Positions 1 through 36,739 of a DNA stretch of 64,000 nt are shown in pieces. The DNA lies in assembly GCF_028641065.1 (NCBI RefSeq), contig NC_073401.1:22320001-22384000 (forward strand), read 5' to 3'. Each line of letters begins with the position of its first letter. Position 1 is the first letter of the stretch. A program made the translations under genes and the position numbers. The notes under the pieces were generated by a model. The model was given only the letters and a program-made list of their open reading frames with translations, made no database searches and was not told the DNA's origin. The stretch comes from Leucoraja erinacea. Its lineage: Eukaryota.

Positions 1-199
1 ATATTTAAAACTCGCAATCTGTTTAGTGTATATATGCGGGGGGTTCATACAGAACATTATAGATTATTTATTTATAAAGAAGGGACAACTGTGACAACCC
101 TTTTCATTCTGCTGGATGTATGAAGCTTTTTAGAAACACAAGTCTCTAAAATAAGACCTGCGTGTTTCACAGGGGCGAATATTTTGAGGAAGAATCTGG

Positions 200-290
200 C
201 AATTTCTGATTGGCTTCGACGAGCATACCGGTTTGATTGGTTTGGATAATTAAACACACGGTGACATATCGTCATTCCATTTATAAATAG
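200..290 (+). promoter_or_regulatory. Ig light-chain promoter, cluster c1 (two reverse CCAAT boxes, degenerate octamer-like GTTTGGAT at 240-247, TATAAAT at 282-288)
   Basis: Lies ~75-160 nt upstream of the leader ATG. ATTTCTGATTGG and TATA are conserved in c2 and c3, and ATTTCTGATTGG also in c4. Confidence 0.65.
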
Positions 291-363
291 AGCCAGAGAG
301 CAAGATTACACGCCACTTGTCCTGGAAACTGCCGCCCCATCGGAGCTCAGTCGGGTAATGAAC

Positions 364-412
364 ATGTCTTATTGGATCCGTGTGGTCGGTGCGTTGGTGT
401 TTTGCGCAGTTT
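364..412 (+). CDS. IGL: Ig light chain c1 leader exon (MSYWIRVVGALVFCAV)
   Basis: Hydrophobic signal peptide ending in a phase-1 GTGAGT donor at 413. An in-frame upstream ATG exists at 358. Confidence 0.9.
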
Positions 413-533
413 GTGAGTATTTTACTTTCCTGGATATTATACTTATTTCTGTTCACCATTAATTTGGGATTATCTCCCACACTTCAACAAACTTAATATT
501 TTCTCTTTTTTTCTGATATTTCTCCTTTCTCAG

Positions 534-878
534 ACTTAAGCGCGGCTGTTACAGTAACTCAGCCGCCTTCGATGTCCACCTCTACGGGACAGAACATACA
601 AATACCCTGCACCATATCGGGTACCAGTTCAGGCGCTAACTATGTCTCGTGGTACCAACAGATTCCTGGCAAAACTCCCAAGTATCTATTCGGCCATACT
701 ACCGGCGGCAGCATTTATAAAGGCACGGACATTCCAGACCGTTTTTCCATCTCGGTGTCAGGCAGCTCTGTAACATTCGCAATATCTAGCGTTCAATCGG
801 TGGATGCTGCTGACTATTACTGTGCCAAATGGGATAGTGGTTTACATTTCGGTAAAGGAACGAGGCTGGGTATTGGCG
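534..878 (+). CDS. IGL: Ig light chain c1 germline-joined VJ exon (type II/lambda-like)
   Basis: Pyrimidine tract and CAG acceptor at 531-533. Reads VTQPPS..C..WYQQ..DAADYYC-AKWDSGLH-FGKGTRL with no interruption, then a GTAAGT donor at 879. No RSS. Confidence 0.95.
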
Positions 879-1873
879 GTAAGTAAAATATATTCTTCGA
901 ACAGCGCGCTGTTTTCTTTTTATTTTAATGCAGATATTGTTTGATTTAATGTCCTGAGTTCACATGATACGTGATTGGGCCAGTTGTATTTCAGTGCAGA
1001 TGGTGCGATCTTGCTGTACAGATGTTCCGAGTTCACTTGGACATAACTCAGTGAAATGACTGGGAAAGCGAGCTAATGCTTTGTCTTGAGCTTCGTTCAC
1101 TAACTTGCGGAAATATTTGCAGTGATTGTCCAGATATGAAAGGAAATTGCTTGGGTAACGGGGTTCACCAACGTCAATATTCAACACTGTCAAAAATCCG
1201 GTTGACGGGTTGAACAAGGATATCAAAATGCCAAATGCGAAAGGAGAAAGTTTCGCACATTTCCTTCAGAAATTGTGTTTAATACGTAGAGCAGCTTTTC
1301 GTGGACGCAGCCGTGTATTTCACATTTAAATGAACATTCGAACTACAATGTAATTCTTGCTTGTGAACTATATCTGCGAATCGGTGACCGTGGCCTTCGA
1401 AGACTAGTTTCCATATATTTTTGCCGAACATAAATGGCGTCACGCTCCATCTCAATGGGTGCCGACAATTAAATAAGTTTAAATCTGTTATTATAAATGT
1501 CGCGACCGCGAATCGTTTATATCTGCTGATATATTTAAATAAATGTAAACCCGGAAATGTGTAGTAAAATGAACATTATAAAAGTTATAATAATGTATTC
1601 AGTTTTATAAAATACTGCAGCCATGATCTATCACAGATGGTTTCCCGGTGTTTATACAGAGGGTAGACAGGATCTATTTTAGTTGCTTTCACGCACTTTA
1701 TTTATTGTTCACCCAATTAAAATAAACACACTATAATGGTTTGAAAAAGGTCGAGAATAAAACGACATTTCTATAAATGAATAAATGAGTGCTTTAATGA
1801 GATGTATTTTCGGTAAATAATGATATCTCAACGACAGCATTTCTCCAATTAAATGTGACTTCTTATTAAACAG

Positions 1874-2196
1874 ATCCTCGGGCACCGATCGTGACGGTCC
1901 TGCCGCCTTCAGCCGATGAAGTTACCTCAAAGGGCACCGCCACCCTGGTGTGTTTGGTGAACGGCTTTAATCCGGGCTCGGTCGCCGTTGAATGGAGCGT
2001 TGACGGCAGTGCAAAAAATAGCGACGTTGACACCAGCCCGATCCAGCAGGATAAGGACAACACGTTCAGTCTCAGCAGTTACCTGACTCTGACAGCCTCA
2101 GACTGGAACTTACACGACCTTTACTCCTGTGTGGTTAAACACCAGGCTCAGGCAAACCCACTTAAGACAACTATCGAGAGATCCAGCTGTATCTGA
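1874..2196 (+). CDS. IGL: Ig light chain c1 constant exon
   Basis: CAG acceptor; DPRAPIVTVLPPS..ATLVCLV..W..YSCVVKH..RSSCI-stop (C1-set domain with interchain Cys). Splice phase matches the VJ exon. Confidence 0.95.
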
Positions 2197-2461
2197 TGTT
2201 GGAAACGTGAGGCTGACCTGACTAAGTTAGTTTATCATCATTGGGTTCGTTCATGTGACAAAGTTAGTAATGTATTGGACTTCGGTGTTTTCGCTCAGAA
2301 ATGCCATTTGTAGTTGAAACTTCGATTTTTATGACTTGTTCACTTTAAATGTAGTTCTTTCGAAAGAATGTCGTTCTTGAATGAAGCATCAAATAGATTC
2401 AATTGCGTTATCCAACAGCATGGATGTTGTTATTGTACCCATGGTATCTTTGTAGCCGTTG

Positions 2462-2467
2462 AATAAA
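2462..2467 (+). terminator. poly(A) signal of c1
   Basis: AATAAA ~265 nt after the stop; conserved in c2. Confidence 0.65.
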
Positions 2468-3574
2468 GTTTAAAAAACGCATTTCAAATGCATTGTTGAT
2501 TCCCTCAGTTTTATTTGTGACCCGAACCATGATGGCTTAACACGGGTTGTGTTGTCTCGTAGATTTGAGCTAGCAACACTGATTTTGATTCTCTATTTCG
2601 ATCACTAATTACAATCGTACAACAGTCGTGGGCCACTCGTCCATTTATACCACGCGTTCTACAGCGCTTTGTCAGTTCTTGTGCAACATGAATCAGACAA
2701 AGAACCGTACAAACCAAGCAGGGCAAACGTGGTCTTAAACCCCAAAATATCACAGAAATAAACAGAAAATACTATTAATACTCAGTAAGTCGGGCGGTAT
2801 GTGGGAAGTGAGAAATAGATTAGACGTTTCAGGCTGTTTAAAAAAATAAATAAAACAAACGTCCCTACCAGCCTCGTGCGTTCAGGGTTTGTTAAATATG
2901 TCTTTGTTCATAATGTGCCCGGTTACATAATTAAATAAAATACGTGTGCATACGTGGAAATCAGGAAATTTGGAAACGCCATTAATTCCCAACATATCAG
3001 CAGGTTTCTGTAAACTGATGGGTTGTTCGCACCTGCACTTTACACCCCTCGCACTAAGCATGGCACCTCCATCCTTCATCACAGAAGGCCGTGACTTTCA
3101 CACTAATCGGTGACGGGGTTTGTATTTAAATATTTACAATCATTAAACTTTATTTCTTCTTTATTTCTTCTGATTGTCAGCTTTAAAGAAACGGAGTGAT
3201 TATTGGCGTTAGCAGAACTGCCACTGAGTTTGTATGTGGCGTGCACGTGTCTCACGGTGGTATTACACTAGAACTGGGCAACAACACTCTCAATAAAGCA
3301 GGATAATATCTACAGAAAGATGCGATGAGTGCACGGCAGCTTCATATAGACCACGTGCAGAAAGAGAGAGAGAGAGAGGGGAGGGGGGAGAGAGAATAGG
3401 ACGGGGGCGGGGTTAATAGCGAACAATGAGGGAACTATATGCTATAGTTAGAGGACAATCAGTCCCGGACAAACCCCTGACCTCTGTCACAAATCGCTTT
3501 TCACTTATTCCAAGCTTTATTACCAATTATTTTCACGTTACATGAGCAACCTGGGCTTAAGTCTTAATGAATGG

Positions 3575-3795
3575 GAAGGAGCTGCAGATGCTGGTTTAAA
3601 GCAAAGATAAACACAAACATCTGGAGTAACTCAGCGGGTCAGAATGCATCTCTGGAGAAAAGGAATCGGTGACGTTTTGGGGCGAGACCCTTCTTCAGAC
3701 TGTTTGAAGAAGGGTCTCGATCCGAAATGTCACGTATTCATTTTCTCCAGAGATGCTGTCTGACCCACTAAGTTACTCCAGCTTTATGTGCCTTA
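3575..3795. mobile_element. Penelope-derived palindromic non-autonomous repeat
   Basis: GAAGGAGCTGCAGATGCTGG..CTTCTTCAGAC followed by an inverted GAAGAAGGGTCTCG..AGTTACTCCAGC half. Same family as the tail of the Penelope-like element at 62.8 kb. Confidence 0.6.
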
Positions 3796-4229
3796 TTTTT
3801 CTAAATGATCCGGATTGTAGGCATTATTTGCTGATTCTAATAAATCGTCACATATCTGCAATTGCTCACCTGATCGTTAGTTATTTTGGAAATTCCTCTA
3901 AATCTGTAACTTGTAAATACTGAGCATTCTTTCGCTCGGAACAAATTGGTCAATTGAAAAGCCTTGACTATGCACCTCATTCAAATCACCATTATACCTT
4001 CCATGTTCAAAGGAACCAGTTCCGATTACACGAGCTGCCATTATTATGCCCATTTTCTTCCCAATTTCTTCTGCTGCTTCTAATTTTTATGAAGGAGCCA
4101 ACAGCAAAGATTTGAGTCTTCCCATCCTTGCCTTTTCCTTCCGTTCTCCTAGTGTCTTGGTTATCTATTGTGAACTGCACCTTTCCCAGGTGATCGATAT
4201 CGGGTCTCATTTGTTCTGAATCTTTTCAT

Positions 4230-5070
4230 AGAAAAATAGAAACATTGATAATAGGCGCAGAGGAGGCCATTCGGCCCTTCGAGCCAGCACCAACATTCGG
4301 TGTGATCATGGCTGATCGTCCCCAATCAATAACCCGAGCCTTTTCTCTCCCCATATCCCTTGATTCCACTAGCCTCTAGAGCTCTATCTAACTCTCTCTT
4401 AAATCCATCCAGTGATTTGGCCTCCAGTGCCCTCTGTGGCAGGGAGTTCCACAAATTCACAACTCTCTTGGAGAAAAAGTTTTTCTCACCTCTGTCTTAA
4501 ATGGCCTCCCCTTTATTCTAAGACTCTGGCCCCTGGTTCTGGACTTGCCCCGCGTTGGGAACATTTTTCCTGCATCTAGCTTGTCCAGTCCTTTTATAAT
4601 TTTATATGTTTCTAAACTCCAGTGAATACAAGCCTAGTCTTTTCAATCTTTCCTCATAGGACACTCCCGCCATCCCAGGGGTCAATCTCGTTAACCTACG
4701 CTGCACTGCCTCAATCACAAGGATATCCTTCCTCAAATTAGATCGAAACAGCACACAATACTCCAGATGTGGTCTTACCAGAGCTCTATACAACTGCAGA
4801 AGAACCTCTTTACTCCTATACTGAAATCCTCTTGTTATGAAGGCCAACATTCCATTAGCTTTCTTCACTGCCTGCTGTACCTGCACGCCAACTTTCAGTG
4901 ACTGGTGTACAAGGGCGCCCACGTCTCGCTGCACATCCCCTTTACCTAACCTAACCCCATAGAGATAATAATATTTTCCCTTGTTGTTGTCGCCAAAGTG
5001 GATAACCTCACATGTATCTATATTATACTGCACCTGCCACGCATCTGCCCACTCACTCAACCTGCCCAGG
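4230..5070 (-). mobile_element. CR1-type LINE 3' fragment
   Basis: ORF 4602-5060 has CR1 RT C-terminal motifs (LYRALVRPHLEYC, YEERLKRLGLYSLE) and a (CATAGAAA)-type tail. Confidence 0.85.
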
Positions 5071-15979: not shown

Positions 15980-16950
15980 AAGGACCCGTTCACTCCTACT
16001 CTTTGCTTCTTGTCTGCCAACCAATTTTCTATCCATGTCAACACCCTATCCCCAATACCATGTGCTCTAATTTTAGTCACCAGTCTCCCGTGCGGGACCT
16101 TATCAAAGGCTTTCTGAAAGTCTAAATACACTACATCCACTGGCTCCCCTTCATCCATTTTATTTGTCATATCCTCAAAAAAATTCAGAAGATTAGGCAA
16201 GCATGATTTCCCTTTCATAAATCCATGTTGACTTGGACTAATCCTTTTACTGCTATCCAAATGCCCCATTATTACCTCTTTAATAATTGACTCCAGCATC
16301 TTTCCCACCACCGACGTCAGGCTAACTGGTCTGTAATTCCCCGTTTTCTCTCTCACTCCTTTCTTGAAAAGTGGGATAACATTAGCAATCCTCCAATCCA
16401 CAGGAACTGATCCTCAATCTATTGAACATTGGAAAAGAACATCCTTGTGATTGACGCAATGCAGCGTAGGTTCACGAGATTGATCCCTGGGATGGCGGGA
16501 CTGTCCGATGAGGAAAGATTGAAAAGACTAGGCTTGTATTCGCTGGAGTTTAGAAGGATGAGGGGTTCTTATAGAAACATATAAAATTATAAAAAGACTG
16601 CACAAGCTAGATGCAGGAAAAATGCTCCCAATGCTGGGCGAGTCCAGAACCAGGGGGCCACAGTCTTAGAGGCCATTTAAGACTGAGGTGAGAAAACACT
16701 TTTTCACCCAGAGAGTTCTGAATTTATGGAATTCCCTGCCACAGCGGGCAGTGGAGGCCAAATCACTGGATGGATTTGAGAGAGAGTTAGACAGAGCTCT
16801 AGAGGCTAGTGGAATCAAGGGATATGGGGAGAAGGCAGGCACGGGTTATTGATTGGGGACGATCAGGCATGATCACAATGAATGGCGGTGCTGGCTCGAC
16901 GGCCGAATGGCCTCCTTCTGCACCTATTTTCTATGTTTCTATGTTTCTAT
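15980..16950. mobile_element. Two abutting CR1-type fragments (15980-16435 on -, 16436-16950 on +)
   Basis: Minus ORF with NYRPVSLTS and VYLDFQKAFDKVPH. The plus piece is the inverted paralogue of 4230-4730. Confidence 0.85.
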
Positions 16951-17980
16951 GGAAATATTCCGAACAAATGAGACCCGATATCGATGACCGGGGAACGGTG
17001 AAGTTCACAATGGAGAACCAGGACACTAGGGGAACGGAAGGAAAAGGCAAGGCCGGGAAGATTCAAATGTCTGCTGTTGGACCCTTCATAAAAATTACGC
17101 CGCAGAAGAAATTGGGAAGAAATTGGGCATAATAATGGCAGCTCGACTGTAATCGGAATTGGTTCCTTTGAACAGGGAAGGTATAATGGTGATTTGAATG
17201 AGGGGCATAGTCAAGGTGTTTTAATTGACCAATTTGTTCCGAGTGAAAGAATGCTCAGTATTTACAAGTACAGATTTAGAGGAATTTCCAAAATAACTAA
17301 CCATCAGGTGAACAATTGCAGATATGTGACGCTGTATTCGAATCAGAAAAAAATGCCTACAATCCGGATCATTTAGAAAAGATAACACACATAAAGCTGG
17401 AGTAACTTAGTGGGTCAGACAGCATCTCTGGAGAAAACTGTCTGAAGAAGGGTCTCGCCCCAAAGAGACCCATCTCTTCACCTATGCCTATCCTTAGCCC
17501 CACGTCCCCCTCCCTTTTCATCTGTGCATTAATTCCCTCATATTGTGTTTTGTATTGAATTCTGTCTTTACTTTGTGTACTAGTCATGTCTCTACTATTT
17601 ATTTCATTCACCTTACATGTTTTTCCTCTACCTGCTATTTTTTTGTAAGGTGTCCTTGAGACTCTTGAAAGGCGCCCATAAATAAAATGTATTATTATTA
17701 TTATTATTAAAACGTCACCGATTCCTTTTCTCCAGAGATGCTTTCTGACCCGCTGAGTTACTCCAGCTTTTTGTGTTTATCTTTGGTTTAAACCAGCATC
17801 TGCAGCTCCTTCCCATTCATTAATACTTAAGCCCAGGTTGCTCATGTAATGTGACAATAATTGGGAATAAAGCTTGGAATAAGTGAAAAGCGATTTGTGA
17901 CAGAGGTCAGGGGTTTGTCCGTGACTTATTGTCCTCTAACTATAGCATATAGTTCCCTCATTGTTCGCTATTAACCCCGC

Positions 17981-18139
17981 NNNNNNNNNNNNNNNNNNNN
18001 NNNNNNNNNNNNNNNNNNNNNNNNNNNNNNNNNNNNNNNNNNNNNNNNNNNNNNNNNNNNNNNNNNNNNNNNNNNNNNNNNNNNNNNNNNNNNNNNNNNN
18101 NNNNNNNNNNNNNNNNNNNNNNNNNNNNNNNNNNNNNNN
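17981..18139. other. Assembly gap (N run)
   Basis: 159 N. Confidence 0.99.
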
Positions 18140-18796
18140 TGAAGCTGCCGTGCACTCATCGCATCTTTCTGTAGATATTATCTTGCTTTATTGAGAGTGT
18201 TGTTGCCCAGTTCCAGTGTAATACCACCGTGAGACACGTGCACGCCACATACAAACTCAGTGGCAGTTCTGCTAACGCCAATAATCACCCCGTTTCTTTA
18301 AAGCTGACAATCAGAAGAAATAAAGAAGAAATAAAGTGTAATGTTTGTAAATATTTAAATACAAACCCCGTCACCGATTAGTGTGAAAGTCACGGCCTTC
18401 TGTGATGAAGGATGGAGGTGCCATGCTTAGTGCGAGGGGTGTAAAGGGGAGGTGCGAACAACCCATCAGTTTACAGAAACCTGCTGATATGTTGGGAATT
18501 AATGGCGTTTCCAAATTTCCAGATTTCCACGTATGCACACGTATTATATTTAATTATGTAACGGTACACCTTATGAACGAAGACATATTTAACAAACCAT
18601 GAACGCATGAGGCTGGTAGGGACGTTTTTTTTGGGGGGGGGGGGGGTTTAAACAGCCTGAAACCGCCAATCTATTTCTCACTTCCCACATACCGCCCGAC
18701 TTACTGAGTATTAACAGTATTTGCTGTTTATTTCTGTGATATTTTTGGTATTAAGACCACGTTTGCCATGCTTGGTTTACATGGTTCTTTGTCTGG

Positions 18797-18994
18797 TGTA
18801 CCTGAACAGAAACCTCTGGAGACTTTGCGCCCCACCCAAAGTTTCTGTGCGGTTCCCGGAGGTTGCAGGTGGTTGCCGGAGGTTGCAGGTAGTGGAAGCA
18901 GGTAGGGAAACTGACAAAAACCTCCGGGAACCGCATGGAAACCATGGGTGGGGCGCAAAGTCTCCAGTTCAGGTTTCCTAAGTGGGACAGGGGC
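18797..18994. mobile_element. Palindromic MITE, partial
   Basis: Internal inverted repeat CTGGAGACTTTGCGCCCCACCCA (18816-18838 / 18945-18967) and end AAGTGGGACAGGGGC. Absent at the paralogous site near 2690. Confidence 0.7.
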
Positions 18995-19219
18995 ATAATG
19001 TTGCACACGGACTGACAGAGCGCTGTATAACACATGGTATAAATCGACGAGTGGCTCACTAGAGTTGTACGATTGTAATTAGTGATCGAAATAGAGAAAC
19101 AAAATCAGTGTTGCTAGCTCAAATCTACGAGACAACACAACCCGTGTTAAGCCATCATGGTTCGGGTCAGAAATAAAACTGAGGGAATCAACAATGCATT
19201 TGAAATGCGTTTTATAAAC

Positions 19220-19225
19220 TTTATT
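19220..19225 (-). terminator. poly(A) signal of c2
   Basis: AATAAA on the minus strand at the position paralogous to c1. Confidence 0.65.
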
Positions 19226-19486
19226 GAACGGCTACAAAGATACCATGGGTACAATAGCAACATCCATGCTGTTGGGTAACGCAATTGAATCTACTTGATG
19301 CTTCATTGAAGAACGACATTCTTTCGAAAGAACTACATTTAAAGTGAACAAGTCATAAAAATCGAAGTTTCAACTACAAATGACATTTCCGAACGAAAAC
19401 ATCGAAGTCCAATACATTACTAACTTTGTCACATGGACGAACCCAATGATGATAAACTAACTTAGGTCAGCCTCACGTTTCCAACA

Positions 19487-19809
19487 TCAGATACAGCTGG
19501 ATCTCTCGATATTTGTCTTAAGTGGGTTTGCCTGAGCCTGGTGTGTAACCACACAGGAGTAAAGGTCGTGTAAGTTCCAGTCTGAGGCTGTCAGAGTCAG
19601 GTAACTGCTGAGACTGAACGTGTTGTCCTTATCCTGCTGGATCGGGCTGGTCTCAACGCCGCTATTTCTTGCACTGCCGTCGACTGTCCACTCAACGGCC
19701 ACCGAGCCCGGATTAAAGCCGTTCACCAAACACACCAGGGTGGCGGTGCCCTTTGAGGTAACTTCATCGGCTGAAGGCGGCAGGACCGTCACGATCGGTG
19801 CCCGAGGAT
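19487..19809 (-). CDS. IGL: Ig light chain c2 constant exon
   Basis: CAG acceptor; DPRAPIVTVLPPS..RSSCI-stop. Confidence 0.95.
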
Positions 19810-21334
19810 CTGTTTAATAAGAAGTCACATTTAATTGGAGAATTGCTGTCGTTGAGATATCATATTTCAGAAAATGCATTCCATTAGAGCACTCATTTAT
19901 TAATTTGTAGAACATCGTTTTATTCTCGACCTATTTCAAACCAATGAATGTGTGTTTTTGTTTAATTCGGATAAACAATGAATAAACAACGTGAAAGCAA
20001 CTAGGATAGATGTTGTCTGTCCTATCCATAAACACCACAGAAACAACTGTGATATATCATTTCTGTACAGTTTAATAACATTGAACACATTGATATAACT
20101 TTATAAAAGTGATTTTCACTACACGTCTCCAGCTTTACTTCCATTACCGTCTATTTAAATGTAGCAGATGTCAATAAGTTACTTCGCGGAATTTACATAT
20201 TAACAGATTGACACTTATTTGATTGTGTGCACCCATTGAGATAGAGGGTGACGCTATTTAAGTACCGCAGGAATATTAGGAAGAGATTCTCCGAACCGCC
20301 ACGGTACAGGTTCGCAGATTTGGATTTCATTATAGTTCGAATGTTAATTTATATTTGACATGTATTGTTGCGATCACCAAAGTCTGTTACACGCATTATA
20401 CAAAAGTAACCTATTTCTTGAAGGAAATGTGCGAAACGTTATATTTTCACATTTTGAGGAGAAACTATAAACCCGTTAGACATGTCCACCAGAATTTCGG
20501 CAAAGTTGAATGTCAACGTTGCTGAACCCAGTTAACCAAGCAGTTTACTTTCACATCTGCACAATTATTCTCGCGCGTTGAAGATTTCTGCAAATTATTT
20601 AACAAACCGCATTTTAGTTCGGGGGCACTTGAACTCTACGTCAATCCTTATATACATGGCTACTTCAAAATCCCGAAAAAAGTGCCAATAATTCGCATTG
20701 GGAAACACGCGATAATTATTGGGCGAGAATGAAAAATTGGAGAGTCGCCTCACATTTTCGAGAACATTAAAGTTCTTGAAGTGCTGCCTAAATAATTTGG
20801 TAAATTGTGAACTGTAAACACACATAAAGCTTGGAATCACAGGTACGCGATTTCTACTCTAATATTGAGTGTGTATTGAACGGGCAAGTCTTGCTCGGGT
20901 CCTGAATAATTTGAAATGGCTTTGAGATAGAAATATGGCTCTCATCTGCGAAAACAATGACATCAATTATTTTTGTTATTCAACTAAAATGTAAAGGGAT
21001 TCAGAGTGAAACACTTGTTTAAATATCAAACAAAAACACCGTGGAACTAATTATTCCCTGGCATCCCTGCACGGTGCGGTCGGATATCAATGCGTAAAAA
21101 GGATAGAAACTAGCTACAGTCCCAAATAATTTAATTCGCCCAAAGTAGTTAAAGTCTATGAGTTCATTCGCCCGCTCAGGTTTACTGGGCGCCGAGTTGA
21201 GAAATTTATTTTTAGCTCCATTTTCCAGTTATTTCACTGAGCTATGACTAAGTGAACTCGGAGCGTGAGCGTCTGTAAAACAGGAATCAATACACTGCAC
21301 CAACTACATCGACATAAACCTGTCAAAATTAAGT

Positions 21335-21770
21335 ATAATGTGAAGATAGGCACAAAACGCTGGAGTAACTTAGCGAATCTCTGCAGAAAAGGAATAGGTT
21401 ACGTTTCGGGTCGAGACCCTTCTTCAGACTGGGAGTCAGGGGAAAGGGACGCGAGATATATACACGGTGTAGAGAGATAAAGAAAAATGATAGAGAGATA
21501 AAGAAAAAGTTACGATGATAAAGGAAATAGACCATGGTTTACTGTGGGCTCGGTGAAAACGAGTATCAAAGCCCTGTCACACGGTACGAGTACATTTCAA
21601 GAGCTCTCCCGAGTTTAAAAAAAAAAATCAAACTCGTGGTAAGCACGGAGAATGAACGTAGCGAGTACGTCGGAGTTACTTGAAGTTAGAGAAATCAAGT
21701 CATGCCGCTGTATTGTAAGCTGGCCAAGTGAAATATGAGCTGCTGTTCCTCCAATTTGCGTGAATTACGA
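21335..21770. mobile_element. Penelope-derived repeat with a nested MITE fragment (~21571-21675), in the c2 J-C intron
   Basis: GGAATAGGTTACGTTTCGGGTCGAGACCCTTCTTCAGACT family sequence, plus a GCCCTGTCACACGGTACGAG MITE-like end. Confidence 0.55.
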
Positions 21771-21845
21771 CGTTAATTCAACAAACATTTCATTTACATT
21801 TACAAAATAATCCAGGGCGCCGTCCAAAGAATATATTTCACTTAC

Positions 21846-22187
21846 CACCAATACCCAGCCTCGTTCCTTTACCGAAATGAACACCACTATCCCATTTTGC
21901 ACAGTAATAGTCCGCAGCATCATCCGCTTGAACGTTAGATATTGCGAATGTCGCAGTGTTGCCTGACATTGAGACGGAGAAACGGTCTGGAATGTTCGTG
22001 CCTTTATCAATGCTGCCGGAATAATAGTAGAATAAATACTTTGGAGTTTTGCCAGGGATCTGTTGGTACCAGGAGACATAGTTACCGCCTGAACTGGAGC
22101 CCGATATGGTGCAGGTTATTTCTATGTTCTGTCCCGTAGAGGTGGACATCGAAGGCTGTTGACTTATTGTCATTGCCGCGTTTACAT
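21846..22187 (-). CDS. IGL: Ig light chain c2 germline-joined VJ exon
   Basis: CAG acceptor; MTISQQPS..C..WYQQ..DYYC-AKWDSGVH-FGKGTRL; GTAAGT donor. Confidence 0.95.
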
Positions 22188-22307
22188 CTGAGAAAAGATC
22201 AAGATCAGAAAAATATAAAATCATTGAGATAGTTGAAGTGTGGGAGAAGATGCCAATGTAATGGTGCACGGAAATAAATCTATTGCCCGGGGAAGTATAA
22301 TACTCAC

Positions 22308-22356
22308 AAACTGCGCATAACAGCAGAGCGCCAACCACACTGATCCAGCAAGACAT
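22308..22356 (-). CDS. IGL: Ig light chain c2 leader exon (MSCWISVVGALLLCAV)
   Basis: Signal peptide, phase-1 GTGAGT donor. Confidence 0.9.
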
Positions 22357-22429
22357 TTTAATTAAGCGACTGCACTCAGACAGGGCGTCAGTTTCCTGAT
22401 TAAGTGGCGTCTAAATTTGCTCTAGGGCT

Positions 22430-22520
22430 CGCTTTATAAATGGAATGACGAGTTGGCACCGTGTGTTTATCTTTGCAAACCAATCAAACCAGAATGTTCG
22501 CCGAAGCCAATCAGAAATTG
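22430..22520 (-). promoter_or_regulatory. c2 promoter (CCAAT x2, octamer-like GTTTGCAA, TATAAA)
   Basis: Paralogous to the c1 promoter. Confidence 0.6.
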
Positions 22521-24885
22521 CCAGATCCTTCCTTCGTCGAAATATTCCGCCACTGTGAAGCATGGGGGTCTTATTTTCGTCATTTGTATTTCTAAATAGC
22601 TTGATGCGTTCTCATACATGCAGTGGAATAAAAGGGATTTGCGCACTAGCCCCTTCCCGATAATGAACAATCTATTATTTTCTGTATGATCTTTATGCAA
22701 AAATATAATGAAGAAATTATCTGAGAGTTTTCAATATTATATTTTGTAACTGTTTGGACACGTAAGCGAAACGGTCCAAATAAAACCATATCTCTGAATA
22801 TAACGTGATGGCAGCCACCCTCCTCTGCCCCGTTTTTATTCAGTGTCATCTTAAATCGATATATTTTCGGAATTTTCGAAATGATAATTCCCACAGACAA
22901 TCATCCTTCTTGTGTGAGAATGTTAACTAAGATTAACACTAACAAATGTTAGTGCCGTTGCAGCTTTAGGAAGCAATTCAGACTACGTGGTACGTATGTT
23001 GCTTGGAAGAGCTGCCTGTTTTCACTCCAATACTGTAATGCGCAGTGGACCCTTGCCCAAAGAAGGGCACCTGCATTTAGAAAAACAGAGGTGTTGCATC
23101 TGACTTTAATGAAGTTTGAAATTGGTGATATGTTTGACAACATGTTGATATACTACATACGTATCATTGATAAATAATTTCATCTACAGTTGATGCAGTG
23201 TTTGTATATTCCACACAGCACCAGTGGACGATGAGCATCAGCAATAAGAAGCAACGTCTGCAAGAGCAGCACGAATGGATCGTGATAGTCGTTGTGTCAT
23301 CTGCGCGCCATCCCCGACATTTTGAACGACATTTTCCTTCCATTTGATTAACAACAAAAGTTCCAAACTTAACATCTAGAAATTGTTCGGGATACTTGTT
23401 TTTTCGAAATTAAACTCCAATAACCGGAGTTAGATCTTGGGTGCGCGCGCCACTATTTTTTCCATCCGGGGAGAGCAGACGAAGAACACACAGTCACACA
23501 CTGCTGCCGTCACACAGGTGGCCACAGGCAAAGAAGCCGGGACAATGTTAATGGTTGTTCAGACATTAATATCAATCGAAGGCATTGATTTACACCCGAC
23601 AATATCACTGTTCTGAATATCCTTTAACATCTCTGAATACTCCTTAATATAAATGACGACCTGGCAACTAACGTGAATGCATGGATCATAAATTCCCGTT
23701 AAACCAGATTAATTTAGCAGCCGTCATTATTGCTCGGCCAACCATTAACATAAACGTCCATTCTTTCCAGCACGGCTGGGACGGGAACACAATGTGTACC
23801 ATCTACAGAATCAGTTGCAATAGCGCGCGTAAACCACTCTAAACGTATGCATGTCACTACGACAGGCATGTTTATCACATGTTTATTGGCAGAATCCCCT
23901 CCAAGAGTCTCTCTGGTGCACAATATCCAGGGTTGTAAATATCTCGCATTGCTCTCACCGCTGCCGTTCTTTACTATGCAACGTGCAATGCTGTATGCAA
24001 ATGAACACGGCTCAAGGCTGTTCATCATAATCTTCCCAAATGCCCATCCACAGATGCTGCTTGACCCCCTCAGTTACTCCAGCAGTTTGTGCTTTACTCA
24101 AGATTCCAGTATCTGCAGTTCCTTGTGTCTCTGCGTCCCCAGTTTTGAATGAACAATGAATACTGCGTTCCCAGAGATCCACACATCCCACAAATGTTGG
24201 AGAATTAGATATGATCAAGCGAGAGCGAGCAGAGTGCATTGCTGCATGATTGTTTCATATTTCACATTCGTGGAAAGTGGACACTGTGTACCAATACAAC
24301 AATGTTGACCCCACTGCACGCCCACGTGTGTACTGGGATATCTCCATTTCTTTCCTAGACACGTCTAAGACTAGCTGGGCACATGATTTAATAAATAACC
24401 CCTCACTATTTGAGTACCATGATAAACGGCTAATTCTATAACATAGTTACACTTTCTTTCTTGATCAGACTTATTCATTGAGGTCAAGGAAAGAGCGTTC
24501 ACGCCGCGGCCCTGTTTCCATCAATCTTTCCACCACCACGCACAAGAAGCACAAGACGCGACAAGACAGACACCATTGTGCAGATGCAGAGAGGTGTGTT
24601 CAGCTCTGGTTGAACAACTTCTAATCTTGTGTGTGGACACTCGATAAAAAGACATTCCAGGAACGGAGATTTCTCCAGACTAGCCATGGCAAACAGGAAT
24701 CTGGAAAAGCAGAAATTCATGTGACTCATTATTATTAGCAGTCAAGACTTAATGAGCAATAGGGCGTGAGATTTGATCCTTTATGAGTATTTTCTCGTAT
24801 TTTGCTATGATAAAGATGGTCTTGGAAACAAAAATATCTATCTCCATTCCATCTCATTCCAGCTCCCCACTCAATACTAAATTAT

Positions 24886-27082
24886 AATAGACAATAGACA
24901 ATAGGTGCAGGAGTCATTCAATGTGATCATGACTGATCATCCCCAATCAGTACCCCGTTCCTGCCTTCTCCCCATATCCCCTTACTCCGGTATCTTTAAG
25001 AGCCCTATCTAGCTCTCTTCTGAAAGTATCCAGAGAACCGTTCCCCACCACCCTCTGAGGCAGAGAATTCCACACTCACAACTCTGTTCTAAGTGGCTTA
25101 CACCTTATTCTTAAACTGTGGCCCTGGTTCTGGACTCCCCCAACATCGCGAACATGTTTCCTGCCTCTAGCGTGGCCAAACCCTTAATAATCTTATATGT
25201 TTCAATAAGATAACCTCTCATCCTAAATTCCAGAGTATACAAGCTCACCTATTCCATTCTCTCAGCATATGACAGTCCTGCAATCCTGGGAATTAACCTT
25301 ATAAATCTGCGCTGCACACTCTCAATAGCAAGAATGTCCTTCCACAAATTAGGGGACCAAAACTGCACACAATACTCCAGGTGTGGTCTTACTAGGGCTC
25401 TGTACAACTGCAGAAGGGCCTCTTTTCTACTAGACGCAACTCATCTTGTTATGAAGTCTAACATGACATTGGCTTTCTTCACTGCCTGCTGTATCTGCAT
25501 GCTTACTTTCATTGACTGGTGAACAAGGACCTCCAGATCCCGTTGTCCTTCCTCTTTTCCCAACTTGACACCATTTAGATAATAATCTGCCTTCCTGTTT
25601 TTACTACCAAAGTGGACAACCTCACATCTTTCCACATTAAACTGGATCTGCAATGCATCTGCCCAGTCCCCCAACCTGTCCAAGTCACTCTGCATTGTCA
25701 TAGCATCCTCCTCACAGCTCACACTGCCACCCAGCTTTGTGTCACCTGAAAATTTGCTAATGTTACTTTGAATCCCTTCATCCAAATCATTGATGTATAT
25801 TGTAAATAGCTGTGGTCCTAGCACCGAGCCTTGCTGTACCCCACTAGTCACTGCCTGCCATTCTGAAAGGGCTCGTTAATCCCTACTCTTTGTTTCCTGT
25901 CTGCCAACAATGTTTTACCCCAATACCATGTGCTATAATTTTGCCCACTAATCTCCATGTGGGACCTTATCAAATGCTTTCTGAAAGTCCAGGTACACTA
26001 CATCCACGGGCTCTCCCTTGTCCATTTTCCTAGTTACATCCTAAAAAAATCCAGAAGATTAGTTCAACATGATATTCCCTTCGTAAATCCATGCTGACTC
26101 GGACCGATCCTGTTACTGCTATCCAAATGAGCCGCTATTTCATATTTTATGATTGACTCCAGTATCTTCCCCACCACCGATGTCAGGCTAACTGGTCTAT
26201 AATTCCCTGTTTTTTCTCTCCCGCCTTTCTTAAAATGTGGAATGACATTAGCTACCCTCTCATCCACATGAACTGATCCTGAATCTATAGAACATTGGAA
26301 AATGATCACCAATGCGCCCACAGTTTCTAGAGACACTTCCTTAAGTACCGTGGGGTGCAGACCATCAGGCCCTGGAGATTTATCAGTCCCATCAGTCTAC
26401 CCAACACCATTTCCTGCCTAATGTGGATTTCCTTCAGTTCCTCGGTCACCCCAGATCCTCTGGCCACTAGAACATCAGGACGATTGTTTGTGTCCTCCTT
26501 ATTGAAGACAGGTCCGAAGTACCTGTTCCACTCATCTGCCATTTCCTAGTTCCCCATAATGAAATCACCCCTTTTCAGTCTTCGAGGGTCTTAACTATTT
26601 TATTCCTCTTCACATACCTAATGAAGCTTTTACTATCCTCCTTCATATTCTTGGCTAGTTTACATTCGTACCTCATCTTTTCTCCTCGTATTGCCTTTTT
26701 AGTTGTCTTCTGTTGCTCTCTAAACATTACCCAATCCTCTTGCTTACCAATCATCTTTGCTACGTTGTACTTCTCTTTTATTTTTATACTGTCCCTGGCT
26801 TCCCTTGTCAGCCCCTTACTCCCCTTGGAATCTTTCTTCCTCTTTGGAATGAACTGATCCTGCACCTTCTGTATTATTCCCAGAAATACCTGCCATTGTT
26901 GTTCCACTGTCATCCCTGCTAGGGTATCTTTCCAGCCAACTTTGGCCAGCTCCTCCCTCATGGTTCCATAGACCCATTTGTTCAACTGTAACCGATTCAC
27001 CTCCGATTTTACCCTTCTCCCACTCAAATTGTAGATTAAAACTTACCATATTATGGTCACTACCTCCTAATGGCTCCTTAAC
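24886..27082 (-). mobile_element. 5'-truncated CR1-type LINE with 9-bp TSD
   Basis: RT motifs in fragmented ORFs. CTAAATTAT at 24877-24885 and 27083-27091. Empty site in the paralogous flank near 41305. Confidence 0.9.
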
Positions 27083-27309
27083 CTAAATTATCAAGACTTC
27101 TCTGATATTGTTTTTAAAGAAAGAGCAATACGGCTGTGATTGAATACTCACCACATGTTTCAATGAGCCCGAATAACATTGAAAAAGTTCGACATGTTAC
27201 AGGATGAAGTTTCTTATTTGAATGGTATAAACCTAAACTTTGTCTCTGTCGACCACAAGTGCAACAAGGCCGCAGTATGTGCCGTCTGGAGTCCCTTATG
27301 TATAGCCAA

Positions 27310-27941
27310 CTGCAACATTGTCACCAAAGAATGAAGGCGTAGACTGGTTTCTAAATGCGGAGAGAATCCAGGAGTTGGGACTACTGGTATAGGATCTCCA
27401 ATAAGTTGATTCGCAAGTGGATTCGGTAGTAAAGAAAGCAAACGCAATGATAACATTTATTTGGAGAGGGCTTGTATACGAAAACAGGAATGTCATGCTG
27501 AGGCTCCATAATGCGCCGGTCGGGTCGGATTTGGAATATTGTGAGCAATGCTGGGCACCGTATCTGAGGAAGTGCTGCCTCTGGAAAGGGTCCAGAGGAG
27601 GTTTACAAGAATGATCACAGGAATGAGTGTGTTAACATCTAATGAGCGTTTGACGGCACTGGGACTGTACTCGCTGGAGTTTAGAAGAATGAGATGAGAC
27701 CTCATTGAAACGTACAGAATAGTGAAAGGCTTGGATGGTGTGGATGTGGAGCGGATGTGACCAGTAGTAGTGAGTCCAGGGCGAGACACAGAATTAAAGA
27801 CCGTTCTTTTAGGAAGGAGATGAGGAAGAATTTATTGGTAAATCGGTGGAATTATTTGCCACAGAAGGCTGTGGAGGCCAAGGCAGTGGCTAATTTTAAG
27901 AGATAGATAAATGTATGATTAGTGCGGGTATCACAGTTTAT
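27310..27941 (+). mobile_element. CR1-type 3' fragment, split by a DNA transposon (continues 28903-28960)
   Basis: VVKKANAM..LEYC..WAPYL. The tail sequence resumes TATGGGGAG after the insertion. Confidence 0.75.
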
Positions 27942-28291
27942 TAGGCTGTGGGCCGGGCATCAACAATGTGTCTAGAAATCAGTTTTCGTGACCCAAGTCA
28001 TCAAACTACATGAAACGTTGCACAGATTTAGATTAAATATAATTGAGAAGGAAGTCATAACTCGTCATTGCCGAAAGTTGCACATTCATTAATTAGAAAA
28101 TGAGATCGGGAAAGTAAGCGCCATCTAGTGGCCAATGCCCCTATTACACGATGGGCAGCCTATTTCCGTGTTGCAGTCCATTTCAACTATATATTATTAT
28201 ACCTATATATATTCCAGATAGTAATATAGGTATAATAATATAATATATATGATAATATAATAATAATAATATAATAATATCATATATAGGT

Positions 28292-28322
<31 letters not shown>

Positions 28323-28902
28323 ACCTATATATATTCCAGATAGATATATTCCTCCGTTTTCCTGGAAACGGCCGCTACGGACGGCACTAAGGACGGCACT
28401 ACGGACAGACTTTAGATCTTACCTTTCAGTTTGAGTTGATTCACAAAGTTTCACAACTTTGTGTTGCAGCATCTCAGCATGGACTTTGCTTTCAAGACTT
28501 TCTTCCACTTCTATCCACTTAGCTGCACATATTTCAGACTTCTTAATGCTATTCTCACTAAATTCAATTACCCTGCTGCAAGTTTCCACGACAAAGAACC
28601 TTCATCGGAATCTCCAGTAAAAAACAGGCGTCAGTGAAACCCTCTCTGTGTGGCTAGCCTGAAACAAAGCGCGTGATTGGCCAACTGGCAGACAACTCAA
28701 TGTTAAACGTGCTTTGATTAGACTACAAATTCCCGAATTATTTCCAATTTTTCCTCTAATTTAATTAAAATGTGCAAGTCTTGTTCATGACGAGTTTCAG
28801 GGGTGATTTATATATATGTTTTACACAATATGTGAAAATTTAATGTAGTTCTGTGACTTGGGTCACGAAACACTGGAATAAAGCTCCTCGGCCCACAGCA
28901 TA
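27942..28902. mobile_element. Non-autonomous DNA transposon with terminal inverted repeats (possibly Academ-like)
   Basis: Termini TAGGCTGTGGGCCG / CGGCCCACAGCATA, subterminal inverted TTTCGTGACCCAAGTCA, and a 3-bp TAT duplication inside a CR1. Confidence 0.75.
28116..28134 (-). promoter_or_regulatory. CTCF-like binding motif
   Basis: Minus strand TGGCCACTAGATGGCGCTT closely fits the CTCF core consensus. Confidence 0.55.
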
Positions 28903-29409
28903 TATGGGGAGTAGACTTGATCGGTCATATGGCCTAATTCTGCACCCATCACTTATGATCTTAACACTTATGATCATATAAGGCAGACAAGACCAACAGA
29001 CGCATAATAATGTATAGAATGCGCAAAACAGCTGAATTTGCTGGTTTGCATTGAACGTTTGCTGCAGGAGCTGTCATCCATCCTTTTTCGCTGAGGATGC
29101 GAAATGACTCGCGGAATGACTCCAGTATTTTGTGTCTATCTTCCGCATTATTATATAGTTGTTTGCAAGGTATCACCAGCAAATGGTGTTGGACCAGCCA
29201 TACGGAAGCAATCGCCAAGGATGCACACAACACCTTTATTCCCTTAGGAGGTTTGACGTGTACCCAACATGGTTTGAGAACAGCTCCATTGAAATACGCA
29301 AGAAATTGCAGACAGTTGTGGACATAGCCCAGGCCATCACGCAAACCAATCTACCTTACTTGGACTTCACCTGTACCACGCCACCTTGCTGAGCCACCAG
29401 CATCACCTA

Positions 29410-31105
29410 CGACAGCCTAAAGAGGAAGCCTACAGGATCGGTGATGCAGCCTCTACAGGCAGGCAACGTACAAGCTGAGAAGAGGAATCAGAGCTGCCAA
29501 GGAAAGGTACTCTGAGAAGTTGAGGAGCAAGTTCTCAGCTAGTGACTCTTCTTCAGTTTGGAAGGGCTTGCAAGAAATCACCAGCTACACGAGGAAAGCC
29601 CCCCCGCTCTTTGGACAATCGTCAGCTGACCAACGACCTGAATGAGTTATATTGCAGGTTTGACAAGCAGAAATGTAACCCTAGTACCCCCTCCACCCCA
29701 ACCCCCCGGCCCCCCACCCCCAACCAACACAGACCCCAGTCTACAAAGACTGGACCCTTCTACAAGGTCTCCTCCCCATTCACCACTTCACACCTACTTA
29801 AAGAAAGACTCCAGTCTGAAAAGACTGGACCATTCCCCACCCCAACCAACACTTCACACACACCCGCAACCTGACCCCAGTCTGCAAAGACTGGACCTTT
29901 CTACACCCAATCCTCCCCAATCACCACTTCACACCAACTTAAAACAAGACTTCAGTTTGAAAAAAAATGGACTCTTTCCCACCTACCCCTCTCCCATCGC
30001 CACTTAATATCACGCCCAATTACCCATCCACTCCGTGCTGCACAACATCACTTCTTCATCATCAACAATAAAAATAGAGGATGTGGAGAGGCTGTTCAGA
30101 AGGTAGAAAAGCCAGAAATCTCCAGGACCGGGTAATGTTTCACCCTCTACTCTCAAGCTCTGTGCTGAACAACTGGCACCGGTCTACACACACATTTTTA
30201 ACCAGTCCCTGCAAACATATACTGTCCCTGGCTGCTTCAAAGTCTCCACTGTTGTCCCTTTACCGAAAAAGTCAAGGATTACTGGTCTTACTGACTACAG
30301 GCTTGTCGCACTGACCTCCGTAGTCATGAAGGCCCTTGAAAGGCTTGGGTTGGACAAGCTGAAAATTATGACGAACCATAATGGACCATCTGCAGTTTTC
30401 ATATTGGGCCTATAGATCTGTGGATAACGCAGTCAACCTGGGCCTGCACTTCATCCTCTAGCACCTAGACGGCCTTGGGACCTAAGCGAGGATTTTGTTT
30501 GTTGATTTTAGCTCTGCATTCAACACCATTGTGCCAGAGCTACTACACTCCAAACTTTCCGAGTTGACTGTGCCTGAACCCCTCTGTCGGTGGATCACCG
30601 GCTTCCTGACAGATAGGAAGCAGCATGTGAGGCTGGGAAAGCACATCTCGGACCCGCAAACCCTCAGCATAGGAGCACCGCAAGGCTGCGTATTCTCCCC
30701 TCTCCTCTAATCTCTCTACACCAATGACTGCACCTCCACCGACTCCTCTGTCGAGCTTCTCAAATTTGCGGATGACACAACCCTCATTGGACTAATCTAG
30801 GATGGGGAAGAATCTGCCTATAGATGCCAGCAGGAAGTGACACAGCTGGCGGCCTGGTGCCATCGCAACAACCTGGAGCTCAATGCTCTTAAGACAGTGG
30901 AATTGATAGTAGACTTTAGGAGATCTCCGCCTCCCCTCACCCCACTTATCATCAACAACACCACCGTCCCATCTGTGAAGCCTTTTAACTTCCTGGGAAG
31001 TCTTTTAGGTTCCATCGACTCCACAGTCAAAAAGGCAGAACAGAGGATGTACTTCCTGTGGCAGCTGAGGAAGCACAATTTGCCACAGGCAATGGTGGTC
31101 CAACT
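29410..31105 (+). mobile_element. Rex1/Babar-type LINE fragment (degenerate RT) with internal tandem repeats at ~29720-29990
   Basis: FVDFSSAFNTI, GAPQGCV.SPLL, AWC..NNLELNALKTVELIVDFRR. Confidence 0.8.
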
Positions 31106-31496
31106 CGTCATGCACTGAATGGTTTATCTTGATCCAGTATCTGTACATTGTGGACGGCTTGATTGTAATCATAGAGAGTCCTTTCATTGACCGGTCAGCA
31201 CACATCCAAAACCGTTTTCACTAAAGCTCAATAAATTAAACCAAGATGATGAAGAAAAAAAGATTAGTTAAAAAAAACAGTGACCAGGGGATGTAAATGT
31301 GAACGAAATAAATATGAGATTCCAGGTTGCGGTGACACGGGTGTTTCAGATTTAACATTGTCCATTAGAGCCACGGTTACATAGATGAAGAAGAAATATG
31401 AAGTATTATGGAGCAGAGCAAACTAATTCTGTTTTATGAACTTTGACGCAGAACGCCAATGTATGTGTCAGGTGTGCAGAGCGGAGAGTGAACTTG

Positions 31497-31992
31497 ACTT
31501 AGAGGGAGTACAGAGAAGGTTCACCAGACTGATTCCTGGGATGTCAGGAATTTCATATGAAGAAAGACTGGATAGACTCGGCTTGTGCTCGCTAGAATTT
31601 AGAAGATTGAGGGGGGATCTTATAGAAACGTACAAAATTCTTAGGGGGTTGGACAGGCTAGATGCAGGAAGATTGCTCCCGATGTTGGGGAAGTCCAGGA
31701 CAAGGGGTCACAGGTTAAGGATAAAGGGGAAATCCTTTAGGACCGAGATGAGAAAAACATTTTTCACACAGTGAGTGGTGAGTCTCTGGAACTCTCTGCC
31801 ACAGAAGGTAGTTGAGGCCAGTTCATTGGCTATATTTAAGAGGGAGTTAGATGTGGCCCTTGTGGCGAAAGGGATCAGGGGGTATGGAGACAGGATACTG
31901 AGTTGGATGATCAGCCATGATCATATTGAATGGCGGTGCAGGCTCGAAGGGCCGAATGGCCTACTCCTGCACCTATTTTCTATGTTTCTATG
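31497..31992 (+). mobile_element. CR1-type LINE 3' end
   Basis: LEGVQRRFTRLIPG..YEERLDRLGL and a TTTCTATG tail. Confidence 0.85.
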
Positions 31993-34155: not shown

Positions 34156-34565
34156 CATAAGGTGCAATAGTAATTTAAAATATAAATGGTACCAGGATCT
34201 GGTAATGGGGGGTATAAAATAATTTTTAAATAAAAACACGGTTGGTATATCCTTTTTTGCGGAGTATTGTGTTACAATAGAGCGATTGTTTTTCCTTTTT
34301 TTAAAAAATAGTTTCTTTCTAGGGTCTTATTTCCTTTCTTTACTTCCTCTCTAATTTCTTCCCTAAGGGGCTTTCTTCTCCCAACACTTTCCTGCACCTT
34401 CACGATTCTTGCTCACTTTCCTTACTTCTTTTATTTCTACCTTTTATAAAGCTCGAAAAACGAAGTGGTACAACAAAATGTAATAAGATTTATGTGAAGT
34501 GTATTAATGTAATTTACTGTACTTCTAATAAAAATTAAAAAAAAAAAATTAAATAAATAAATATC
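34156..34565 (+). mobile_element. 5'-truncated poly(A)-tailed retroposon insertion with 11-bp TSD
   Basis: AATAAATCAAG at 34145-34155 and 34566-34576; AATAAA plus an A-rich tail. Absent from the paralogous c1 and c2 flanks. Confidence 0.75.
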
Positions 34566-34860
34566 AATAAATCAAGGAGAACGAGCAATGCATTTGACAA
34601 TAGTTTTAAAACTTTACTCAACGTCTGCAAAGAATACCTTGGGTACAATAGCAACATACATGCATTTAGTTAACGCAATTGAATCGACGATGCTTTATTC
34701 AACAAAGATGTTCTTTCGAAAGAAGTACATTTAAAGCGAACAAGTAATAAAAATCAAGGTTTCAACTATAAATGGCATTTCTTTATGAAAATTCCGAAAG
34801 ACAAAGACTAACTTTGTCACATGGAAGAACCCAATGGTGAGTCAGCTCACGTTTCCAACA

Positions 34861-35183
34861 TCAGGTACAGCTGGATCTCATGATATTTGTCTTAAGTGGG
34901 TTTGCCTGAGCCTGGTGTGTAACCACACAAGAGTAAAGGTCGTGTAAGTTCCAGTCTGAGGCTGTCAGAGTCAGGTAACTGCTGAGACTGAACGTGTTGT
35001 CCTTATCCTGCTGGATCGGGCTGGTCTCAACGTCGCTATTTCTTGCACTGTCGTCGACTGTCCATTCAACGGCCACCGAGCCCGGATTAAAGCCGTTCAC
35101 CAAACACACCAGGGTGGCTGTGCCCTTTGAGGTAACTTCATCGGCTGAAGGCGGCAGGACCGTCACGATCGGTGCCCGGGGAT
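34861..35183 (-). CDS. IGL: Ig light chain c3 constant exon
   Basis: CAG acceptor; DPRAPIVTVLPPS..MRSSCT-stop. Confidence 0.95.
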
Positions 35184-36397: not shown

Positions 36398-36739
36398 CGC
36401 CAATACCCAGCCTCGTTCCTTTACCGAAATGTAAACCACTATCCCATTTGGCACAGTAATAGTCAGCAGCATCCACCGATTGAACGCTAGATATTGCGAA
36501 TGTTACAGAGCTGCCTGACGCCGAGATGGAAAAACGGTCTGGAATGTCCGTGCCTTTATAAATGCTGCCGGAATAATACCAGAAAAGATACTTGGGACTT
36601 TTGCCAGGAATCTGTTGGTACCACGAGACATCGTTAGCGCCTGAACTGCTACCCGATATGGTGCAGGGTATTTGAATGTTCTGTCCCGTAGAGGTGGACA
36701 TCGAAGGCGGCTGAGTTACTGTAACTGCCGCACTTATGT
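36398..36739 (-). CDS. IGL: Ig light chain c3 germline-joined VJ exon
   Basis: CAG acceptor; VTQPPS..WYQQ..DYYC-AKWDSGLH-FGKGTRL; GTAAGT donor. Confidence 0.95.

What the first reader, a model, noticed from the sequence alone, without database searches (positions are those of the whole stretch)
1..4730. Cluster c1 is a chimera: 5' half matches c3, 3' half matches c2, with the switch at the C exon
Seen: the c1 promoter, leader, VJ and most of the J-C intron (1-1870) are near-identical to c3 (35184-37270) and clearly more distant from c2. The c1 3' UTR and downstream flank (2197-4730) are near-identical to c2 (16440-19486) and more distant from c3. The three C exons are all very similar. Inference: germline recombination or conversion used the C exon as the homology block, shuffling VJ/promoter modules against 3' UTR/flank modules and homogenising C while V diverges.
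Basis: partly seen in the sequence, partly recalled or inferred. Interest (0 to 1): 0.7.

Follow-up and report, generated by a model that had tools for sequence, protein, structure and literature searches.

The report
Fused skate antibody light-chain gene
Three neighbouring skate antibody light-chain genes share the front half of one sister gene and the back half of another, likely because an ordinary unequal crossover at their near-identical constant exon fused the two sisters once and the fusion was then copied.

Summary
The mosaic is real. At sites that tell c2 from c3, c1 sides with c3 at 282 of 317 before position 1812-1828 and with c2 at 118 of 140 after it; 0 of 1000 permutations reach this. 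c1 is not alone: two more tandem copies upstream of the window carry the same mosaic, which makes a mis-join very unlikely. All five are intact germline-joined VJ-C light-chain genes of little skate, annotated lambda-like. c2 and c3 differ by 19-23% on both sides but by only 13 of 432 sites over the C exon tract, synonymous sites included. In related skates V trees split by type across species, while C groups by species with moderate support, which points to recurrent C conversion. c3 and c2 lie in tandem, and c1 equals that pair minus the 15 kb between their C exons. Best reading: one Lepore-type crossover at conversion-homogenised C exons, then triplication. The direction of the event is inferred, not shown. 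The mechanism is known from other gene families; my searches found no report of it for skate light chains.

The parts
1..357 (+). c1 promoter region, c3-like (two ATTGG boxes and a TATAAA; no ATTTGCAT octamer within 560 nt of the V exon). The match to c3 continues about 2 kb upstream of the window.
   Evidence: motif names recalled
358..412 (+). c1 leader exon
   Evidence: sequence; agrees with annotated protein P0005
534..878 (+). c1 germline-joined, in-frame VJ exon (Y type, c3-like)
879..1812 (+). c1 J-C intron, c3-like, with a deletion near 1086-1092 shared by the three hybrid copies
1813..2268 (+). Homogenised block: end of intron, C exon (1874-2196) and start of 3' UTR; c2 and c3 differ at 13 of 432 sites here against 197 of 886 outside. 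The switch lies within it.
1992..2031 (+). Short stretch of c1 C exon with five sites not shared by the other four copies; two of its residues (S42, K48) match Amblyraja and Rhinoraja Y-type genes, so likely an unconverted older tract
2197..2495 (+). c1 3' UTR, c2-like, AATAAA at 2462-2467
2496..4730 (+). c1 3' flank, c2-like; c2/c3 homology ends near 3131, the c1/c2 match runs on to 4730 into a shared LINE copy
16435..22755 (-). c2: intact X-type cluster (VJ about 22187-21846, C about 19809-19487); likely donor lineage of the 3' module
19870..34800 (-). About 15 kb between the c2 and c3 C blocks (c3 3' module, spacer, c2 5' module) that has no close counterpart in the hybrid copies; the segment a C-to-C crossover would remove
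33576..39357 (-). c3: intact Y-type cluster (VJ about 36739-36398, C about 35183-34861); likely donor lineage of the 5' module

Best explanation
c1 and two tandem copies upstream carry the 5' half of the c3 lineage and the 3' half of the c2 lineage, likely because one germline unequal crossover between the C exons of a duplicated c3-c2 tandem pair removed the 15 kb between them, and the fused gene was then likely triplicated. Shown: the mosaic, its sharing by three copies, the tandem order c3 then c2, and the low divergence of C. Inferred: recurrent short gene conversion kept the C exons of two old V lineages nearly identical, which would supply the homology; an inverted duplication would place the hybrid on the opposite strand; conversion went on after the fusion. 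The protein result is small (a c3-type V on an almost identical C); the main change is a c3-type promoter and V now followed by a c2-type 3' UTR, poly(A) signal and flank, with untested effect on expression.
For: Switch. Three copies with the same breakpoint interval, 2.5-4.2% apart. Geometry: c3 lies upstream of c2 in their direction of transcription, so a deletion-type hybrid has exactly c3-5' and c2-3'. Both matches extend past the c2/c3 homology limits (to -2079 upstream, to 4730 downstream, against -17 and about 3131), which a patch conversion does not explain. No reciprocal gene found: genome searches returned 5 copies of the 3' UTR, one of c3 type, and 5 copies of the intron, one of c2 type. 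C homogenised beyond purifying selection: c2-c3 synonymous differences 4 of 76 in C against 15.5 of 78 in V; binomial P 0.0003 at 20%. Cross-species: V splits into X and Y lineages across Leucoraja, Amblyraja and Rhinoraja (95/90), C groups the five Leucoraja genes (82/96, unstarred); V distance X-Y within Leucoraja 22.1% against C 3.5%. The c3 pairing (Y-type V with C ending M..T) is in 4 of 7 Amblyraja Y genes and 0 of 6 X genes; one Amblyraja gene shares c3's CDR1, CDR2 and C end. c2 and c3 share a derived residue (T89) absent from the hybrids, so they exchanged directly. Other runs: one X1 contig covers 858-2982 at 25 differences and 6 gaps, an X5 contig covers 1767-2392; in X8 (about 4% diverged) single contigs over the c2 5' module and spacer have depth 168-196 (one at 40) while contigs over the c2-like 3' module have 689-812.
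Against: Trees of the five copies cannot give direction; the rival with the c1 type as donor predicts the same topologies. The cross-species markers are two residues in automatic gene models, with no 3' UTR sequence seen. 2 of 7 Amblyraja Y genes end like that species' X genes and 1 of 7 is mixed, which fits either older or independent hybrids or retention of an ancestral state (Rhinoraja also ends in I). The hybrids are on the opposite strand, so an extra inversion step is needed. The C tree's species clade is not starred, and the DNA C tree is unresolved. Contigs are collapsed short-read graph paths, their depth is no strict copy number, X1 may be the source sample, and no long read was available.
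Confidence: 0.66

Rival explanations
1. The c1 type is a parent, not the product: c2 and c3 are the recombinants, made when a 15 kb block from a now lost gene (c2-type 5' half, c3-type 3' half) was placed between two copies of the C exon of a c1-type gene, or when c1-type sequence overwrote the 5' half of one neighbour and the 3' half of another.
For: Gives the same segment trees and explains identity of C among all five without a separate step; c1-type to c3 (4.6-4.9%) and to c2 (5.5-6.4%) distances are similar; 2 of 7 Amblyraja Y genes already have an X-like C end.
Against: Needs a parent found in neither this assembly nor, by C-terminal markers, in 0 of 6 Amblyraja X genes. The c3 pairing exists in both genera. 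c2 and c3 share a derived site lacking in the c1 type.
Confidence: 0.18
2. Same direction, other mechanism: a replication template switch (break-induced replication) made the inverted copy and the fusion in one step, copying c3 up to C and continuing on c2.
For: The hybrids are inverted relative to c2 and c3; inverted fragments of the 3' flank lie upstream of two of the three hybrids, a sign of complex rearrangement.
Against: No junction signature was resolved; later conversion has blurred the C block; Amblyraja accession order is compatible with whole Y-X pairs being duplicated, though this is a weak proxy for position.
Confidence: 0.13
3. Assembly mis-join of c2 and c3 reads, or mere rate variation along the genes.
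For: Near-identical 450 nt block in five copies is a classic mis-join substrate; no long reads could be laid.
Against: c1 differs from c3 by 4.8% and from c2 by 5.9% in non-coding DNA and has its own indels; three distinct copies share the mosaic; hybrid-specific intron and UTR forms occur in other runs. Rate variation cannot switch the nearest relative.
Confidence: 0.03

Closest known systems
Lepore-type fusion genes from unequal crossover (haemoglobin Lepore; recalled, from no call)
   Same: Hybrid has the 5' part of the upstream gene and the 3' part of the downstream gene of a tandem pair, with the spacer lost.
   Different: Here the parents persist beside the hybrid, which is inverted, fixed enough to be triplicated, and the exchange block is itself kept identical by conversion.
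Human Ig C-lambda complex (PMC2188323, abstract read)
   Same: [quoted passage not shown]
   Different: Human units are J-C in a translocon; here each unit holds its own promoter and pre-joined VJ, so a C crossover re-pairs a whole V module with another 3' module.
Chicken BG hybrid genes (PMC4046983, passages read); KIR hybrid genes (PMC2816608, search listing only)
   Same: Immune multigene arrays with hybrids of one 5' type and another 3' type, ascribed to unequal crossover or deletion.
   Different: Other gene families; in BG the 5' end correlates with expression, here no expression effect is shown.
Somatic cluster-to-cluster switching of shark IgH (described in review PMC4279169, passages read; the primary paper was not held)
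   Same: V of one cluster joined with the downstream part of another cluster.
   Different: That process is somatic, in B cells and in heavy chains; this is a heritable light-chain change shared by three copies and seen in other runs.
Germline-joined lambda (type II, NS3) light-chain clusters of cartilaginous fish (PMC5192425 and PMC4279169, passages read)
   Same: One pre-joined VJ and one C per cluster, many clusters.
   Different: The passages seen do not describe germline hybrids between clusters.

Membership tests
Cartilaginous-fish germline-joined Ig light-chain cluster | Leader, in-frame joined VJ exon and one C1-set exon per cluster | tested here: met
   V-set and C1-set, open frames in 5 of 5 copies; P0005 is 100% identical over the V.
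Lambda (type II / NS3) isotype | Groups with named lambda chains rather than kappa, sigma or sigma-2 | tested here: inconclusive
   C is 65-70% and V 46-47% identical to deposited shark chains named lambda and most named hits say lambda-like, but one close Rhinoraja model is auto-named kappa-like, and no curated kappa, sigma or sigma-2 chain was in hand for a tree. Skate sigma-2 genes are also all joined.
Lepore-type (deletion) hybrid gene | 5' part from the upstream and 3' part from the downstream member of a tandem pair | tested here: met
   c3 precedes c2 on the minus strand; hybrid is c3-5' and c2-3'.
Lepore-type (deletion) hybrid gene | Single switch inside a block of high identity, flanking markers exchanged | tested here: met
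   matches extend beyond c2/c3 homology on both sides.
Lepore-type (deletion) hybrid gene | The hybrid is derived and the two flanking genes are parental | tested here: inconclusive
   Favoured by absence of the reciprocal gene and by Amblyraja C-terminal markers; not shown with orthologous DNA.
Concerted evolution by gene conversion | Paralogues closer within than between species in the tract, synonymous sites included, with normal divergence on both sides | tested here: met
   the species clade in the C protein tree has moderate support only (82/96).
Somatic Ig cluster switching | Junction present only in B cells | tested here: not met
   Three genomic copies share it and hybrid-specific forms appear in contigs of 4 of 4 runs laid on c1.

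The most novel reading that the evidence does not exclude
In germline-joined clusters, which cannot recombine V and J, the conversion-maintained C exon acts as a standing germline exchange hub: it lets old V lineages swap 3' regulatory modules (poly(A) site, possible 3' enhancer), hybrids with a better module are amplified, and short conversions also move CDR2 patches between lineages, so meiotic recombination replaces lost combinatorial joining. The two Amblyraja Y genes with X-like ends would be independent hybrids.
Probability: 0.2. Interest if true: 0.6.

Novelty: new member of a known kind. Interest (0 to 1): 0.33.

Why it matters
It is a clean, datable example of how shark and skate antibody mini-clusters evolve: V lineages older than the split of skate genera are kept apart while C is repeatedly overwritten within species, and that identity then permits whole-module swaps. 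It warns that C-based trees and short-read assemblies of these loci mislead, and it offers a natural test of 3' regulatory elements (nearly the same promoter and V, two different 3' modules). The mechanism itself is well known from other gene families.

Tried and rejected
No RNA holder on record was listed and no long reads. Contigs of guessed RNA runs X16 and X17 hold Y-type V pieces and c1-type C plus UTR pieces, and X16 also a c3-type UTR piece, but no listed contig bridges V to UTR and contig depth cannot rank genes, so expression of the hybrid is not shown; X19 gave nothing useful among the listed pieces; that lay was swamped by repeats. A similar flank swap was looked for in other light-chain subfamilies on the contig (z1-z5, w1-w3 with c4, t1-t3): no comparable deep switch; z5 has a somewhat more distant UTR. 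One cluster, t2, looked unjoined in tblastn but is an out-of-frame joint without recombination signal. The lambda-2 isotype was considered; PMC5985310 (passages) reports none in cartilaginous fish. Prior description sought in 7 paper searches: none listed describes germline hybrids between skate light-chain clusters, but the library lacks most subscription papers; PMC2192082 was seen only as listing and reference passages; three primary papers were not held; no supplements were read. PMC2193156 and PMC12227049 were read as passages; the latter reports C-domain conversion in shark UrIg2. Earlier scan findings: none.
Full report
What the genes are. c1 has a leader exon (358-412), an in-frame joined VJ exon (534-878) and one C exon (1874-2196). 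Its V is 100% identical to an annotated little skate (Leucoraja erinacea) lambda-like light chain. The genome holds five close members of this subfamily, all on contig C25: two upstream of the window (here cA and cB, C exons at 22299745 and 22312638), c1 on the plus strand, c2 and c3 on the minus strand. All five have open V and C frames. Fourteen more distant clusters follow on the same contig, c4 being the first. The lambda label rests on automatic names and on 65-70% C identity to shark chains named lambda; no isotype tree was possible.

The observation. It holds. Distances by segment, c1-c3 against c1-c2, are 2.5/21.8% (promoter), 4.4/12.8% (VJ), 6.7/22.7% (intron), 4.6/3.1% (C), 15.4/3.7% (3' UTR) and 20.0/7.5% (near flank). 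Of 457 informative sites, 35 of 317 are c2-like left of 1812-1828 and 118 of 140 right of it; none of 1000 permutations approached the score. Rooted trees of V and of 3' UTR give opposite, each significantly preferred, groupings; C is unresolved.

Not an artefact, and not only c1. cA and cB show the same switch interval. The three differ from each other by 2.5-4.2% in non-coding DNA, from c3 by 4.6-4.9% in the 5' part and from c2 by 5.5-6.4% in the 3' part, and share a private intron deletion. A mis-join would give near identity to c3 and c2. In other runs, a single X1 contig covers 858-2982 and an X5 contig 1767-2392; the hybrid-type intron junction is covered in all four runs laid. In X8, about 4% diverged from this genome, contigs on the c2 5' module and the spacer have depth 168-196 (one at 40), the c3-type intron 137, and contigs on the c2-like 3' module 689-812; this suggests several hybrids there too. 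These are collapsed short-read contigs and X1 may be the source sample, so they are supporting only.

C is homogenised. c2 and c3 differ by 22.7% (5') and 19.0% (3') in non-coding DNA but at only 13 of 432 sites in 1813-2268, which includes about 60 nt of intron and 70 nt of UTR (score 50.2 against at most 8.9 in 60 shuffles). Synonymous differences are 4 of 76 in C and 15.5 of 78 in V. Proteins of Amblyraja (7 Y-type, 6 X-type gene models) and Rhinoraja (one Y-type) show that the two V lineages are older than these genera, whereas C is closer within species: Leucoraja X-Y 3.5%, Leucoraja-Amblyraja 7.3-8.9%. D82 is in 5 of 5 Leucoraja and 1 of 13 Amblyraja genes; R48 in 4 of 5 and 0 of 13. c1 alone keeps S42 and K48; S42 marks 6 of 7 Amblyraja Y genes and 0 of 6 X genes, so the original crossover probably lay downstream of about 1998 and upstream of about 2176, and later conversion blurred it (inference).

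Mechanism. Read in their own direction, the minus-strand genes run c3 then c2. The hybrids equal this pair minus the roughly 15 kb between the two C blocks. The hybrid-c3 match runs to -2079 and the hybrid-c2 match to 4730, while c2 and c3 are alignable only from -17 to about 3131, so flanking markers were exchanged, as in a crossover. The genome searches found one c3-type UTR and one c2-type intron, and no reciprocal gene. I infer: old tandem duplication into X and Y; recurrent C conversion; inverted duplication; C-to-C crossover; tandem triplication; further conversion. Inverted fragments of the 3' flank upstream of cB and c1 record inversion in this locus.

Direction. Trees of the five copies fit equally a history in which the c1 type is a parent. 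Against it: the c3 pairing of Y-type V with a C ending M..T is found in 4 of 7 Amblyraja Y genes and 0 of 6 X genes, and c2 and c3 share derived T89 without the hybrids. For caution: 2 of 7 Amblyraja Y genes end like X genes, one is mixed, and no Amblyraja UTR was seen.

Consequence. Protein change is slight. The hybrid gains the c2-type UTR with AATAAA about 265 nt after the stop, where c3 has AGTAAA and an earlier AATAAA. Expression of the hybrid is not shown.

Comparison. Unequal crossover or conversion between conserved C regions is proposed for the human C-lambda complex (PMC2188323, abstract); 5'/3' hybrids are common in chicken BG genes (PMC4046983, passages); C-domain conversion is reported for shark UrIg2 (PMC12227049, passages). 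[quoted passage not shown] Seven searches listed no description of such a hybrid in skate light chains, within a library that lacks most subscription papers. Verdict: real, well supported, a new instance of a known mechanism.

Noticed in passing
window 9280-15456 (+): Two long adjacent frames (834 and 1223 aa), the second with endonuclease, reverse transcriptase and zinc-binding domains: a near-intact non-LTR retrotransposon between c1 and c2.
   Followed up: partly
G000:C25:22306829-22307090 and 22317308-22317569: Inverted fragments of the c1/c2 3' flank sit upstream of cB and c1, part of the tandem repeat unit.
   Followed up: partly
window about 685-715 (CDR2) and its counterparts: The three hybrid V exons differ mostly by replacements (cB-c1 10 non-synonymous against 1 synonymous). 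A one-codon shorter CDR2 is in 7 of 7 X-type and 4 of 11 Y-type genes, c3 included, possibly an old X-to-Y patch.
   Followed up: partly
window 15978-16950: The LINE copy in the c2 flank is locally inverted with a deletion at 16435, whereas its near-copy upstream of cB is colinear.
   Followed up: no
G000:C25:22957408-22954353 and 22472924-22474785: Cluster t2 has an out-of-frame germline VJ joint; cluster w2 has a stop in V: likely pseudogenes.
   Followed up: partly
window 53466-56527 (+): c4, a distant intact cluster with an ATTTGCAT octamer upstream; the five X/Y genes lack it within 560 nt of the V exon.
   Followed up: no
window 880-1100, run X2: The c3-type intron joint has depth 30 against about 180-210 for the hybrid-type contigs, more skewed than the 1:3 of the assembly; hybrid copy number may be higher or variable (depth is a rough measure).
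   Followed up: no
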